Under the pieces are notes generated by a model. The model was not told the DNA's origin and did no database searches. It was given only the letters and a program-made list of their open reading frames with translations. A program made the translations under genes and the position numbers. Shown here piece after piece: positions 1-1,640 of a DNA stretch of 1,640 nt (positions within the stretch are counted from its first letter, which is position 1; every line of letters begins with the position of its first letter). This DNA comes from Naegleria gruberi (lineage: Eukaryota), in assembly GCA_000004985.1 (NCBI GenBank), contig GG739359.1. One strand, given 5' to 3'.

Positions 1-45
1 CTATGTTGTGTATAATTATTAACTAATTAAATATAATTAAAAAAC
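1..45 (-). other. Probable 3' UTR or downstream flank of the minus-strand gene
   Basis: On the minus strand, just after the TAA stop, the sequence is AT-rich and contains TATAT and TAATAAT-type elements (tataatta occurs twice, at 11..18 and 32..39 on the plus strand). No canonical AATAAA is visible before the window ends. Confidence 0.35.
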
Positions 46-828
46 TTACTCTAAAGATCCGAAAATAAATTGTAACTCTGGTACAAAGTAGGATTGTTTT
101 GCTTGTTTGGCAGATGTTGGTTGACTCGATATTGTTGAATTATTTCCAACAACAGTATTATTTGATTTATCGCCCAATGAACTAGAAGAAAGCTCTGCAA
201 CTGTGACCAGCACTCTAGAATTCACTGATTGATTAGATCCACTCGATATAGGTGTATATTTAGCACATGTAAATGGTGTAATTTTAAATGTTAAAGTATG
301 TTCCGATTGTTTTTTAATCAACAAACTCTTTCCTTCCTTCAACCGTAAACTACACTTTACCATATGCATTCCTTCGTTAGTATTTACAGATTTCTTCTCC
401 ACTAAAATGTAGGCCTTCCCACTATATCCAAGATAGCCATGATCAGCAGCAACAGAATTCGATGGAGAGGACAATGGAGAAACCTGCAGGTTTGGTGAGG
501 GGCTACTTTGAGGCATTTTTAATGGTTGATTATTAATACAAGTTGATGTCGTCGCACTGCTGACGGTTGTGGAAGTGGTGTCGCTTAGTGATGAAGAGTT
601 GTCGTTAGCTGATATCGATTGGTTAGTATTGTTGGTGGTGACTGTTATAGTTGGTGATCGAGAGGTATTGTTGGAGAGTTGGAGATGAGGTGGGAGTTGA
701 GGCAATTTTTGATTCTTGTATTGTTGTGGGTCGTGACTTGTTTGGTTTGTGCTTTCTGGAACACTACTACAGGAACTAATTTGATCGTAACTTGAGGATT
801 CATCCAAGTGGAGAGGAATGGTAAGCAT
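46..828 (-). CDS. Ser/Thr/Asn/Gln/Pro-rich low-complexity protein with a globular beta-strand-like C-terminal domain. It may be a single-exon gene or the terminal exon of a gene. Unknown function.
   Basis: A 274-codon open frame on the minus strand, 46..870 including the TAA stop at 46..48. In a 33% GC sequence an open frame this long is very unlikely by chance. The plus strand is G+T-skewed across the ORF, so the coding strand is A+C-rich, as expected for ACN, AAC, CAA and TCN codons. The 'M' at 868..870 is really GTG, and an in-frame TGA sits at 877..879. The first in-frame ATG is at 826..828, giving MLTIPLHLDESSS... and a 260-aa product. Immediately upstream on the coding strand is an acceptor-like ttttgtgcag|AACCCTGG (AG at 865..866). 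This fits either an SL/trans-splice or cis-splice acceptor about 36 nt before the ATG, or an internal exon starting at 864. Codon usage points to a eukaryote: GGA is the main Gly codon, CAA the main Gln codon, and Arg uses CGA, CGG and AGA. The C-terminal region, YILVEKKS...MHMVKCSLRLKEGKSLLIKKQSEHTLTFKITPFTCAKYTPISSG...RVLVTV, alternates hydrophobic and polar residues like a beta-sandwich. There is a very faint resemblance to an MSP/PapD-like fold. I cannot assign a family confidently. Confidence 0.6.
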   Translation of the reverse strand: MLTIPLHLDESSSYDQISSCSSVPESTNQTSHDPQQYKNQKLPQLPPHLQLSNNTSRSPTITVTTNNTNQSISANDNSSSLSDTTSTTVSSATTSTCINNQPLKMPQSSPSPNLQVSPLSSPSNSVAADHGYLGYSGKAYILVEKKSVNTNEGMHMVKCSLRLKEGKSLLIKKQSEHTLTFKITPFTCAKYTPISSGSNQSVNSRVLVTVAELSSSSLGDKSNNTVVGNNSTISSQPTSAKQAKQSYFVPELQFIFGSLE

Positions 829-846
829 TGGTGGATAGAGATGAAT

Positions 847-871
847 GTCATTACAACCAGGGTTCTGCACA
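847..871. repeat. Left arm of an inverted repeat. The core cagggttctgcaca (857..870) is the exact reverse complement of 1317..1330.
   Basis: I compared the two arms base by base. There are 14 contiguous perfect matches, and about 20 of 23 when extended to 847..871 versus 1317..1341. This arm overlaps the first approximately 24 nt of the ORF-track reading frame (46..870), upstream of the called ATG at 828. Confidence 0.7.
856..867 (-). other. On the minus strand, ttttgtgcag|AAC is a 3' splice or trans-splice acceptor-like site. The AG is at plus 865..866.
   Basis: A pyrimidine/T-rich tract is followed by CAG immediately before the in-frame coding sequence. The nearest in-frame upstream stop is only 4 codons away, at 877..879. 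Confidence 0.35.
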
Positions 872-1002
872 AAACCTCACATTGTGAGGTTACGATGAAA
901 TAAGAAAAAGACACTTGATGAGCCATGAATCACACAAAACTACCGTTACTAATAAAATTTAAAAAATTTGATGAAAAAAAAACATCCTGATGATGTTTTG
1001 TG
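868..1002. promoter_or_regulatory. A cluster of CACAAAAC/GTTTTGTG 8-mers sits at 868..875 and 933..940 (as CACAAAAC) and at 995..1002 (as GTTTTGTG), with two more at 1616..1631.
   Basis: There are five copies of an 8-mer expected about 0.05 times by chance in 1.6 kb. All lie in the non-coding half, upstream of the minus-strand gene. The core CRCAAAW matches the MSE/Ndt80-family site, which would matter if the source is a yeast. Confidence 0.3.
875..889. promoter_or_regulatory. The 15-bp palindrome CCTCACATTGTGAGG, with 7-bp arms around a central T, is a candidate dimeric transcription-factor site.
   Basis: cctcaca and tgtgagg are exact reverse complements. The site lies 5 to 20 nt upstream (coding-strand sense) of the start of the ORF-track frame and directly abuts the left inverted-repeat arm. 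Confidence 0.4.
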
Positions 1003-1144
1003 AATGAATCGTGCCGGGATGTTTAATTGCAAGTTATGATGTGAATCAAAAACATACCGTTCTACAAACAAGAGTAATAGCAATAATATTGATTATTGAA
1101 TATTAATTAAACAAAAAGAACACTGACCACTGGTTGAATAGAAT

Positions 1145-1194
1145 GCCTCAGGTTCTAGCTTGGTTCTAATCACCTTAGCACAATGTGCTGAGGC
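1145..1194 (+). other. Potential stem-loop or structured element: the 7-bp inverted repeat gcctcag (1145..1151) / ctgaggc (1188..1194) encloses two GGTTCTA units and the CACAATGTG palindrome.
   Basis: I read the inverted repeat directly. ggttcta occurs at 1151..1157 and 1163..1169. The gttctaatcacc segment loosely resembles a tRNA B-box (GGTTCGANTCC), but no tRNA cloverleaf can be assembled around it. Confidence 0.25.
1178..1193. promoter_or_regulatory. This second copy of the same core is the near-palindrome GCACAATGTGC followed by TGAGG.
   Basis: The 9-mer CACAATGTG is at plus 1180..1188 and again, on the opposite strand, at 878..886. Both copies are followed by GAGG, as cacaatgtgAGG and cacaatgtgctGAGG. 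Confidence 0.35.
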
Positions 1195-1316
1195 GTGCAA
1201 AGTAAAACTTTTCAAAAATAAAAGTATGGGTTCTATATTAATAGTTGAAAATTGATATGTATATGACTGAAAACAAAAACAAATAATATATTGGTTTATT
1301 TCCAAATTCAATATTC

Positions 1317-1341
1317 ATGTGCAGAACCCTGATTCTAATCA
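1317..1341. repeat. Right arm of the inverted repeat. The core tgtgcagaaccctg (1317..1330) extends imperfectly to about 1341.
   Basis: It is the reverse complement of 857..870. Its extension, tgattctaatca at 1330..1341, is also a direct near-copy of tggttctaatca at 1161..1172 (11 of 12 bases). Confidence 0.7.
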
Positions 1342-1345
1342 ATTA

Positions 1346-1355
1346 TTCTTTCCAG
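1346..1355 (+). other. On the plus strand, ttctttccag|TTCG is a 3' splice acceptor-like site.
   Basis: It is a near-consensus TTTCCAG-type acceptor. A second one, attcatgtgcag|AACCCT, lies at 1313..1324 inside the right inverted-repeat arm. Neither has a convincing downstream coding exon. Confidence 0.2.
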
Positions 1356-1640
1356 TTCGTTATCATTTTCATTTGAAAATATCGAACATTGTACTGAATT
1401 GTCGAGTCAACCAAGTCAAGAAGAAATGCTCTTTCGTTTGCTACCAATTTCATCTTCGGTGCTTTGATAAGGAAGGAGAAGAGTTTTGCGTAGAGGATTT
1501 TTAATTGTAGCGTGTCAGATAGACTGAGCAAATGATTCCTATTTTCAAATTTCACTGTCAGGTGTCAATCGAGTATGTAGTTGCATCACAGAAGAAGAAT
1601 TAAAAAAAAATCGAGGTTTTTGTGTTTTGTGTGTAACTCA

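What the first reader, a model, noticed from the sequence alone, without database searches (positions are those of the whole stretch)
847..1341. A 14-bp perfect (about 24-bp imperfect) inverted repeat brackets a 445-bp AT-rich segment between the two ORF-track 'starts'
cagggttctgcaca at 857..870 is the exact reverse complement of tgtgcagaaccctg at 1317..1330. The match extends imperfectly to about 20 of 23 bases. For a 14-mer in 1.6 kb the chance expectation is below 0.01. Each arm ends in an acceptor-like tgtgcag|AACCCTG, so the ORF-track ORFs 46..870 (minus) and 1319..1504 (plus) both appear to begin MQNP. Three explanations are possible. It could be a small TIR/MITE-like or foldback insertion, since a CAGGG... 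terminus resembles hAT-type ends, whose acceptor has been co-opted by the gene. It could be a local inverted duplication of the exon's 5' end. Or it could be paired cis-elements. The GGTTCT family (finding 4) and the CACAATGTG palindromes (finding 3) share sequence with the arms (e.g. cagggttct). This suggests the whole 857..1341 block is one composite repetitive unit.
Basis: seen in the sequence. Interest (0 to 1): 0.7.

Follow-up and report, generated by a model that had tools for sequence, protein, structure and literature searches.

The report
Inverted repeat at a gene-copy breakpoint
A real 14-base inverted repeat in a small Naegleria gruberi contig brackets 446 bases of AT-rich non-coding DNA that begins where this truncated gene copy stops matching its sister copy, so it looks like an inserted or rearranged block (possibly a small transposon), not two exon starts.

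Summary
CAGGGTTCTGCACA at 858-871 is the exact reverse complement of 1318-1331, and the match is 20/22 over 850-871/1318-1339. Only 1.2% of dinucleotide shuffles contain such a 14-mer.

The window is a complete 1,640-bp orphan contig of Naegleria gruberi. Its minus-strand ORF is a genuine exon, conserved in N. fowleri, N. lovaniensis and Willaertia. The two "MQNP" starts arise because the repeat contains GTG-CAG-AAC-CC and was read with a bacterial start-codon rule. No in-frame donor or upstream exon exists.

The key result concerns a second N. gruberi copy (NAEGRDRAFT_71639, on a 342-kb scaffold). It matches this exon at about 98% up to codon 855-853. It then continues with 107 residues that the window does not encode. 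The contig's non-homologous DNA therefore begins within 1-2 nt of the left arm's outer end. That DNA is non-coding and about 30% GC. It is enriched in GGTTCT (x5), CACAWTGTG hairpins (x2) and CACAAAAC (x4).

Best reading (about 0.4): an inverted-repeat-bounded inserted or rearranged block, resembling a small non-autonomous transposon. It has no target-site duplication, its far flank does not resume the sister sequence, and copy number could not be tested. Main rival (about 0.25): the scar of an inverted template-switch or duplication. Interest is modest.

The parts
858..871 (.). Left arm of the perfect 14-bp inverted repeat (CAGGGTTCTGCACA on +). These are the first bases of the DNA that is not shared with the sister gene copy.
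   Evidence: breakpoint inferred
1318..1331 (.). Right arm of the perfect 14-bp inverted repeat (TGTGCAGAACCCTG on +).
850..857 (.). Outward imperfect extension of the left arm (ATTACAAC), 6/8 complementary to 1332-1339. It belongs to the exon sequence shared with P0010. As a direct repeat of 1332-1339 it is only 5/8.
1332..1339 (.). Outward imperfect extension of the right arm (ATTCTAAT).
872..1317 (.). 446-nt spacer: 29.6% GC, stops in all six frames, no protein or RNA family match, no internal mirror symmetry.
873..891 (.). Perfect 19-nt palindrome AACCTCACATTGTGAGGTT (core CACATTGTG), starting two bases inside the left arm.
   Evidence: (z = -4.5)
1173..1193 (.). Second hairpin CCTTAGCACAATGTGCTGAGG (core CACAATGTG, one G.T pair), nested in the GCCTCAG...CTGAGGC stem at 1145-1194.
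1151..1167 (+). Two GGTTCT copies 11 nt apart (1151-1156 and 1162-1167). With 861-866 (+), 1229-1234 (+) and 1323-1328 (-) they form a 5-copy family, two copies of which lie inside the arms.
50..857 (-). Genuine coding exon of a PH-domain-protein gene (deposited model XP_002668073.1 starts at ATG 828). Residues from about 129 onward are conserved in other Naegleria species and Willaertia. About 98% protein identity to sister copy P0010 from codon 855-853 onward.
1..49 (-). Start of a conserved-position intron (GA|GTAAGT...CATAG) that runs to the contig edge. The model's stop codon TAA (48-46) lies inside the donor.
1332..1640 (.). Right flank: non-coding and not the sister copy's upstream ORF. 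1373-1506 shows weak to moderate inverted, co-linear similarity to exon 149..25, including the perfect 13-mer 1402-1414 = reverse complement of 117-129.

Best explanation
The window is an orphan 1,640-bp Naegleria gruberi contig. It carries a 5'-truncated second copy (an allele or a recent duplicate) of gene NAEGRDRAFT_71639. From base 857 leftward it is that gene's first coding exon, on the minus strand. From base 858 rightward it is at least 783 bp of AT-rich non-coding DNA unrelated to the upstream reading frame of the sister copy.

This foreign DNA starts, to within 1-2 nt, with CAGGGTTCTGCACA. The same 14 bases recur inverted 446 bp further in. The enclosed block repeats a hexamer that is part of the arm (GGTTCT) and carries two CACAWTGTG hairpins.

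I read 858..1331 as a terminal-inverted-repeat-bounded block of inserted or rearranged DNA. It works like a small non-autonomous DNA transposon, or like the repeat-rich end of a larger one, sitting at the breakpoint that cut off this gene copy.

Shown here: the repeat, its statistics, the non-coding nature of the block, the motif enrichment, and the coincidence with the breakpoint (at protein level). Inferred: that the block was inserted or mobile. The 'MQNP' ORF starts are simply the two arms read from GTG by a bacterial-style ORF caller.
For: A perfect 14-mer inverted repeat with a sharp inner edge; 1.2% of shuffles contain one.

The contig is N. gruberi and the exon is real.

The sister copy P0010 is on a 342,059-bp scaffold. 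It aligns at 97.4% over 274 residues, with identity beginning at codon TGT 855-853. Its 107 N-terminal residues are not encoded in any frame of the window. The novel DNA therefore begins at 857/858, which is the outer end of the left arm.

The block and right flank are non-coding: no Pfam hits and 12-23 stops per frame. The spacer is 29.6% GC.

Short motifs are enriched, as in the subterminal repeats of DNA transposon ends (my own knowledge of Ac, En/Spm and P elements). GGTTCT occurs 5 times against 0.63 expected, including both arms. CACAWTGTG occurs twice against 0.02 expected. CACAAAAC occurs 4 times against 0.13 expected.

A perfect 14/14 core next to roughly 70-75% similarity outside it fits a functional terminus better than uniform decay of a duplicate.

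N. gruberi is reported to contain DNA transposons and many unclassified repeats (PMC12344493).
Against: There is no target-site duplication at the exact arm ends; the 8-bp flanks ATTACAAC and ATTCTAAT match at only 5/8. A TA-flanked variant (ends at 854/1335) is excluded because 853-857 is host codon sequence shared with P0010.

The right flank does not resume the sister copy's upstream ORF. A simple insertion of 858..1331 into the scaffold-type sequence is therefore refuted. A second event, a larger element, or a transposon-bounded duplication must be assumed.

Inverted similarity crosses the breakpoint into the exon (p about 0.01). The right flank shows further exon-like inverted patches (p about 0.017; 2 of 150 real-DNA windows). 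A transposon does not predict either.

The internal GGTTCT copies are not arranged symmetrically.

Copy number in the genome could not be tested. Metagenome and viral scans found nothing, which is uninformative.

The breakpoint is inferred from protein models, not from scaffold DNA.
Confidence: 0.4

Rival explanations
1. Scar of a local inverted rearrangement (fold-back or template-switch repair, or an old inverted partial duplication). On this reading the DNA right of 1318 is a scrambled, internally deleted inverted copy of the neighbouring exon and the start of its intron. The 14-mer is its best-preserved or most recently copied patch.
For: A second perfect inverted 13-mer at 117-129/1402-1414 is co-linear with the arms, and no shuffle in 2,000 has two inverted matches of 13 nt or more. 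Exon 140..117 is matched by 1371-1385 plus 1402-1414, split by a 20-nt insertion flanked by TCGA on both sides. Exon 72..53 (QFIFGS) matches 1445..1465 (FIFGAL). The co-linear chain score has z = 5.4-6.6 against shuffles, with orientation controls at null level. With the arm excluded, the best inverted alignment has p about 0.017. The outward extension of the arm across the breakpoint has p about 0.01, and the inward extension is zero. The absence of a target-site duplication and the unrelated far flank are both expected.
Against: Against real Naegleria/Willaertia DNA the chain score is only about p 0.013 (2 of 150). The 14-mer is not part of the sister copy's exon (QHKS there, QNPG here), so the arm was not simply copied from the parental gene. 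The left exon is about 98% identical to the sister copy while the putative right copy is heavily decayed and has lost about 700 nt. That requires either gene conversion or error-prone one-step synthesis. A perfect 14-base run is unlikely (about 1%) under uniform decay at about 72% identity. This reading does not explain the enrichment of GGTTCT, CACAWTGTG and CACAAAAC in the block.
Confidence: 0.25
2. Paired cis-regulatory elements. The arms would be two oriented copies of a protein-binding motif (core AGAACC/GGTTCT) in ordinary intergenic or promoter DNA, perhaps a bidirectional promoter, with no mobility or duplication involved.
For: The arm core GGTTCT recurs three more times in the spacer. 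In gene-sense orientation four YAGAACC copies lie upstream of ATG 828 and one inverted copy lies at the far end. A Willaertia intergenic region between divergent genes carries about ten copies of CACCAATTTAAA-like (CAACCAATTTAAA) motifs arranged in mirror orientation, giving exact 15-nt inverted repeats without any transposon. N. lovaniensis has TTAGAACCAATCTCGAA about 105 nt upstream of the orthologue's ATG, which resembles window 1171..1150.
Against: The 14-mer does not recur, even with 3 mismatches, beyond chance in 26 kb of N. lovaniensis and N. fowleri loci. No gene is detectable on the plus strand to the right. The 10-mer shared with N. lovaniensis is within chance expectation (about 0.2). 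This reading does not explain why the arm's outer end coincides with the breakpoint relative to P0010.
Confidence: 0.12
3. Coincidence. A chance 14-mer inverted match in AT-rich, motif-rich DNA with no structural or functional meaning.
For: 1.2% of shuffles produce such a match, so across a genome-wide scan of many windows some chance cases are expected. The real-DNA rate of complex matches of 13 nt or more is about 0.06 per window.
Against: It would have to coincide by chance with three other things: a second perfect 13-mer (0 of 2,000 shuffles for two), the breakpoint relative to P0010, and membership of the arm core in a 5-copy motif family.
Confidence: 0.1
4. Cloning or assembly artefact. 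The orphan contig would be a chimera joining an allelic exon fragment to unrelated DNA at 857/858.
For: The contig is an unplaced 1,640-bp piece. Its counterpart sits on a 342-kb scaffold. Similarity ends abruptly. The left end of the contig coincides exactly with a likely intron 3' end.
Against: A ligation chimera does not create a perfect inverted copy of its own junction sequence 446 bp away. The exon differs from the scaffold copy by real-looking polymorphisms, including an in-frame one-codon indel, so it is a distinct haplotype or paralogue and not a mis-joined read of the same molecule.
Confidence: 0.08
5. Intron with paired ends. 865..about 1330 or more would be a 5' intron of the minus-strand gene, with ttttgtgcag|AACC as its acceptor. 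The arms would pair in the pre-mRNA to loop out the intron.
For: The left arm contains a good Naegleria-type acceptor, comparable with ttttgcag|AG in the N. fowleri orthologue. The arms close a 446-nt domain in the minimum-free-energy folds of both strands (z = -4.9 and -4.7).
Against: The only canonical donor upstream (GTATGT at 1057) has no in-frame ATG-initiated exon, and no other GT gives a plausible one. The right arm on the gene strand reads G|GTTCTG, a poor donor. The orthologous introns seen here are about 45-90 nt. An in-frame TGA lies at 879-877. The sister copy reads through this point with different residues.
Confidence: 0.05

Closest known systems
MITEs / small non-autonomous class II (TIR) DNA transposons
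   Same: Short perfect terminal inverted repeats (14 bp) bound a block of about 470 bp that is AT-rich and has no coding capacity. A motif from the repeat recurs inside the block. The block lies in or next to a gene, and one end coincides with the loss of similarity to a sister gene copy.
   Different: No target-site duplication. The far flank does not resume the sister sequence. Multi-copy status is unknown. The internal motif copies are not arranged symmetrically.
hAT superfamily ends (Ac, hobo, Hermes)
   Same: From my own knowledge, not tested here: hAT termini follow YARNG, and CAGGG fits. The hobo TIR CAGAGAACTGCA resembles CAGGGTTCTGCA at 9 of 12 positions. Ac carries subterminal hexamer repeats.
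   Different: The defining 8-bp target-site duplication is absent (5/8). No transposase-related sequence is present. The resemblance covers only a few bases.
Inverted (fold-back / template-switch, MMBIR-type) duplication junctions and polymerase-theta templated insertions
   Same: A sharp inner boundary, imperfect homology just outside the copied patch, short perfect inverted patches copied from nearby sequence, no target-site duplication, and a location exactly at a structural breakpoint.
   Different: The copied 14-mer is not present in the parental-type exon. The primer-end base (857) would be mismatched with the template. At least 783 bp of novel DNA is far more than typical templated insertions.
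Oriented promoter-motif clusters in heterolobosean intergenic regions (Willaertia L005 3430-3720)
   Same: Multiple short motif copies in both orientations give exact 13-15-nt inverted repeats within a few hundred bp of AT-rich DNA.
   Different: Here the long match has only two copies, no divergent gene is evident, and the arm sits at a breakpoint.

Membership tests
MITE / non-autonomous TIR transposon | Terminal inverted repeats at both ends of the element | tested here: met
   14/14 perfect at 858-871/1318-1331; 1.2% of shuffles contain such a match
MITE / non-autonomous TIR transposon | Target-site duplication (direct repeat) immediately flanking the TIRs | tested here: not met
   No direct repeat of 2 nt or more at 857/1332. 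The 8-bp flanks match at 5/8. The TA variant at 854/1335 is excluded because 853-857 is shared host codon sequence
MITE / non-autonomous TIR transposon | Small, AT-rich, no coding capacity | tested here: met
   474 bp, 31% GC, stops in all frames, no Pfam hits
MITE / non-autonomous TIR transposon | Many dispersed copies in the host genome with conserved termini | not testable with these tools
Metagenome and viral scans were negative but uninformative
MITE / non-autonomous TIR transposon | An empty site in a related copy: both flanks contiguous where the element is absent | tested here: inconclusive
   The left boundary coincides with the end of similarity to P0010. The right flank does not encode P0010's upstream residues. 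Protein-level evidence only
hAT superfamily | 8-bp target-site duplication | tested here: not met
   ATTACAAC against ATTCTAAT, 5/8
hAT superfamily | TIR beginning YARNG | tested here: met
   The arm begins CAGGG. The consensus is recalled from my own knowledge, so this is a lead and not a proof
Spliceosomal intron / co-opted acceptor | YAG acceptor preceded by a T-rich tract | tested here: met
   ttttgtgcag|AACC at 865/864, comparable with the acceptors of the orthologous introns
Spliceosomal intron / co-opted acceptor | A matching donor and an in-frame upstream exon | tested here: not met
   The only canonical donor (GTATGT, 1057) has no in-frame ATG exon. All other GT sites give implausible exons or introns
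Spliceosomal intron / co-opted acceptor | Transcript evidence of splicing | not testable with these tools
   No RNA-seq or cDNA data available
Inverted segmental duplication of the exon (pseudo-exon) | Co-linear similarity extending well beyond the arms | tested here: inconclusive
   z = 5.4-6.6 against shuffles; p about 0.017 with the arm excluded; 2 of 150 against real DNA
Inverted segmental duplication of the exon (pseudo-exon) | The arm sequence belongs to the parental gene sequence | tested here: not met
   The sister copy reads QHKS where the arm encodes QNPG
Introner-like element | The element supplies a donor and an acceptor on the same strand at its two ends | tested here: not met
   On the gene strand the right arm gives G|GTTCTG, a poor donor. 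Both arms carry outward-facing acceptor-like CAG sites instead
Foldback element | Long terminal inverted repeats built from subrepeats | tested here: not met
   Arms of 14-22 bp only. The spacer halves are not complementary (observed 10 against a null of 10.5)
tRNA-derived SINE / known RNA gene | tRNA-like structure or an Rfam family match | tested here: not met
   ARAGORN finds no genes. All Rfam hits are far below the gathering scores

The most novel reading that the evidence does not exclude
858..1331 is one copy of an uncharacterised Naegleria gruberi DNA-transposon family. It would have a CAGGG... (hAT-like) terminus and GGTTCT subterminal repeats. Each end would carry an outward-facing splice-acceptor-like tgtgcag, so insertions in either orientation could truncate or re-splice host genes. 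This copy would be caught as a polymorphic or paralogue-specific insertion that cut off the N-terminal 107 codons of one copy of NAEGRDRAFT_71639.
Probability: 0.12. Interest if true: 0.5.

Novelty: new member of a known kind. Interest (0 to 1): 0.3.

Why it matters
If the block is mobile, it would be a concrete, bounded example of a small TIR element in Naegleria gruberi. According to PMC12344493, most of that genome's repeats remain unclassified. It would also be an example of a transposon-associated structural difference between two copies of one gene. If it is a rearrangement scar, it documents a template-switch-type junction in a heterolobosean. Either way, the practical lessons are ordinary. 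The two 'ORF starts' are artefacts of bacterial ORF calling on a eukaryotic contig. Both N. gruberi gene models for this locus appear truncated at a stop codon that lies inside a conserved splice donor.

Tried and rejected
1. A gapped alignment with nearly free long gaps scored close to its shuffles and was discarded. It was replaced by standard local alignments and a fixed-jump chain score.

2. The shuffle nulls were checked against real Naegleria/Willaertia DNA. The chain score weakened to about p 0.013. An apparent excess of inverted 13-mers in real DNA turned out to be A/T low complexity in Willaertia.

3. The antisense ORF 1555..1343 as a real gene was rejected. The HMMER hits against 1.84 billion representatives were repeat-inflated (six copies of a 22-residue stretch at 41% identity), and there was no BLASTP or Pfam support.

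4. tRNA/SINE origin of TGGTTCTAATCA was rejected: no tRNA. Rfam families all scored far below threshold.

5. A palindromic spacer (ancient perfect palindrome) was rejected: the halves are not complementary.

6. An outer inverted repeat between 858-875 and the contig's right end was not significant (520 of 3,000 shuffles reach the score).

7. A retrocopy reading (right flank continuing into the next exon) found no support from orthologue probes.

8. The arm as a general motif in other Naegleria loci occurs at chance level only.

9. A Helitron-like reading (hairpin followed by CTRR) was considered, but it rests on too few specified bases and I did not pursue it.

10. Attempts to reach more data failed. 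The N. gruberi scaffold DNA is not retrievable. No C-terminal part of the gene and no upstream-neighbour orthologue was found in the N. gruberi protein set. The metagenome and viral scans were empty.
Full report
**Observation**

The window was read in full. CAGGGTTCTGCACA lies at 858-871 and its exact reverse complement TGTGCAGAACCCTG at 1318-1331. That is one base to the right of the coordinates given. The repeat finder reports arms 850-871/1318-1339 at 20/22 complementary, 446 nt apart. With two small gaps the similarity continues to 871..832 against 1318..1354. Toward the inside it stops dead, with an anchored extension score of 0. The spacer is 29.6% GC, against 38.6% for the exon.

**What the window is**

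The 274-codon minus-strand ORF (870..46) hits a Naegleria gruberi 'predicted protein' at 100% identity, and that protein's only contig is 1,640 bp long. The window is therefore a complete orphan contig of the N. gruberi assembly (XP_002668073.1, NAEGRDRAFT_77017).

Residues from about 129 to 274 are conserved in N. fowleri, N. lovaniensis, an environmental relative and Willaertia magna. The orthologues are 431-458-residue proteins that contain a PH domain. They continue past '...FIFGSEE' after a short intron at a conserved position, GA|GTAAGT...YAG|AG, about 45-90 nt long. The window has the same GA|GTAAGT at 50/49, and the intron runs to the contig's left edge. The minus-strand ORF is thus a genuine exon, and the model's stop codon lies inside the splice donor.

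**The 'MQNP' starts and the acceptor idea**

Both listed ORFs start at the GTG inside the arm (GTG CAG AAC CC...), so the shared MQNP is simply the repeat translated under a bacterial start-codon rule. The deposited model begins at ATG 828, and an in-frame TGA lies at 879-877.

The left arm does contain a good Naegleria-type acceptor, ttttgtgcag|AACC; compare ttttgcag|AG in N. fowleri. However, the only canonical donor upstream on the gene strand (AGAACG|GTATGT, 1057) has no in-frame ATG-initiated exon. No other GT gives a credible exon.

The plus-strand ORF 1319..1504, the antisense ORF 1555..1343 and every other ORF in 858-1640 lack family matches. A full HMMER search with the antisense ORF returned only repeat-inflated artefacts. 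No tRNA or Rfam family is present.

**The key comparative result**

The 90%-identity cluster of this protein has a second N. gruberi member, P0010 (XP_002673232.1, NAEGRDRAFT_71639, 377 aa), on a 342,059-bp scaffold. It aligns to the window's exon at 97.4% over 274 residues, and identity starts at 'C[T/N]DIHLYPPML...', which is window codon TGT 855-853. The differences look like real polymorphisms and include an in-frame one-codon indel.

P0010 also carries 107 further N-terminal residues (...SLINRQHKS) that are not encoded in any frame of the window. Where the sister copy reads QHKS-C, the window reads QNPG-C. The two copies therefore part company at 857/858, within a base or two of the outer end of the left arm.

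Everything to the right (at least 783 bp) is non-homologous, non-coding DNA. I could not retrieve the scaffold DNA, so this breakpoint rests on protein models.

**Internal structure of the novel DNA**

- GGTTCT occurs 5 times against 0.63 expected (0 of 200 shuffles reach 5). All copies lie within 861-1328 and two are inside the arms.
- CACAWTGTG occurs twice against 0.02 expected. Each copy is the core of a hairpin: the perfect 19-nt palindrome at 873-891 and the hairpin at 1173-1193.
- CACAAAAC occurs 4 times against 0.13 expected.
- The spacer has no mirror symmetry.
- None of these motifs, nor the arm itself, recurs beyond chance in the loci of the other species.

**Evidence for a transposon-like, TIR-bounded block**

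- A perfect short inverted repeat with sharp inner edges.
- An outer end that coincides with a breakpoint.
- Small size, AT-richness and no coding capacity.
- A motif from the arm repeated internally.
- A CAGGG start that fits the hAT YARNG rule. This last point is from my own knowledge and is only a lead.

**Evidence against a transposon-like block**

- There is no target-site duplication at 857/1332, and the 8-bp flanks match at 5/8.
- A TA-flanked version is excluded, because 853-857 is host sequence.
- The right flank does not resume the sister copy's upstream ORF. A plain insertion of 858..1331 into scaffold-type sequence is therefore refuted. A larger element, an adjacent rearrangement or a transposon-bounded duplication has to be assumed.
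- Copy number, the decisive feature, could not be tested. Two metagenome scans and one viral scan found nothing, but Naegleria DNA is nearly absent from those collections.

**Evidence for the rival: an inverted-rearrangement or duplication scar**

- The window has a second perfect inverted match, the 13-mer at 117-129/1402-1414, co-linear with the arms. No shuffle in 2,000 has two matches of 13 nt or more.
- Exon 140..117 is matched by 1371-1385 plus 1402-1414, interrupted by a 20-nt insertion flanked by TCGA on both sides. Exon 72..53 (QFIFGS) matches 1445..1465, which reads FIFGAL.
- A co-linear chain score is 5.4-6.6 sd above shuffles, with the direct, reversed and complement controls at null level.
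- With the arm excluded, the best inverted alignment has p about 0.017.
- Against real Naegleria/Willaertia windows the chain score is reached by 2 of 150.
- The outward extension across the breakpoint has p about 0.01.

These are moderate, partly post hoc signals.

**Evidence against this rival**

- The arm is absent from the sister exon.
- The putative copy is heavily decayed while the exon is about 98% identical to its sister.
- A perfect 14-base run is improbable under uniform decay.
- The motif enrichment is left unexplained.

**Other readings**

A Willaertia intergenic region between divergent genes carries about ten CAACCAATTTAAA-like motifs in mirror arrangement. These produce exact 15-nt inverted repeats, so oriented cis-motifs can mimic this signal. 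That keeps 'paired cis-elements' alive at low probability. An intron with paired ends, pure coincidence and a cloning chimera are each less likely, for the reasons given in the rival list.

**Verdict**

The repeat is real and non-random, and it is not a pair of exon starts. It brackets a non-coding, motif-repetitive block that begins where this truncated gene copy diverges from its sister copy. My ranking is:

| Explanation | Probability |
|---|---|
| TIR-bounded inserted or rearranged (transposon-like) block | about 0.4 |
| Inverted template-switch or duplication scar | about 0.25 |
| Paired cis-motifs | about 0.12 |
| Chance | about 0.1 |
| Cloning or assembly artefact | about 0.08 |
| Intron with paired ends | about 0.05 |

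Membership in the MITE or hAT families cannot be claimed, because the target-site duplication test failed and copy number is untested. Interest is modest. A BLASTN of the block against the N. gruberi genome, together with a nucleotide alignment to the 342-kb scaffold, would settle the matter.

Noticed in passing
window 46-51 (minus strand); also P0010: Both N. gruberi gene models for this gene (XP_002668073.1 and XP_002673232.1) end at ...FIFGSLE*. The stop TAA lies inside a conserved GA|GTAAGT splice donor, whereas the orthologues continue for about 310 residues including the PH domain. No N. gruberi protein matching that C-terminal part was found. Both models therefore look truncated, or the downstream exons are unannotated or missing.
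   Followed up: partly
window 1-49: The contig's left end coincides exactly with a plausible intron 3' end (GTAAGT...ACATAG, 49 nt). That length is within the range of the orthologous introns (about 45-90 nt). It is an odd place for a contig to end.
   Followed up: no
window 117-140 and 1371-1414: The exon 24-mer 140..117 is matched in inverted orientation by 1371-1385 (12/15) plus 1402-1414 (13/13). The two matches are separated by a 20-nt insertion flanked by TCGA on both sides, which resembles a small duplication-flanked insertion.
   Followed up: partly
window 868-875, 933-940, 995-1002, 1624-1631: CACAAAAC/GTTTTGTG occurs 4 times against 0.13 expected (0 of 200 shuffles), all in the novel DNA. 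One copy overlaps the inner edge of the left arm and one lies near the contig's right end.
   Followed up: partly
window 508-870 (minus strand): The N-terminal part of the ORF (about 120 codons, rich in S/T/N/Q) is specific to N. gruberi. The orthologues start near the position of ATG 516 (MPQSS...), so the true start codon may be 516 rather than 828.
   Followed up: partly
L005 3430-3720 (Willaertia magna): The intergenic region between divergent genes holds about ten CAACCAATTTAAA-like motifs (CCAAT plus TTTAAA). The left half are in one orientation and the right half in the other, so each has the same orientation relative to its flanking gene. This is a candidate bidirectional core-promoter motif array.
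   Followed up: partly
L001 about 5887-5903 and window 1171..1150 (minus strand): N. lovaniensis has TTAGAACCAATCTCGAA about 105 nt upstream of the orthologue's ATG. It resembles TTAGAACCAAGCTAGAACC in the window's spacer. The shared 10-mer is exact but within chance expectation (about 0.2).
   Followed up: no
L001 2140-2153 / 2678-2691: An exact 14-nt inverted repeat, TTGCATCAGAACCA, lies inside the large upstream gene of N. lovaniensis. It also contains CAGAACC. Probably coincidence.
   Followed up: no
window 572-613: A 21-nt tandem duplication (2 copies, 81% match) lies inside the low-complexity coding region and encodes the serine/threonine-rich stretch.
   Followed up: no
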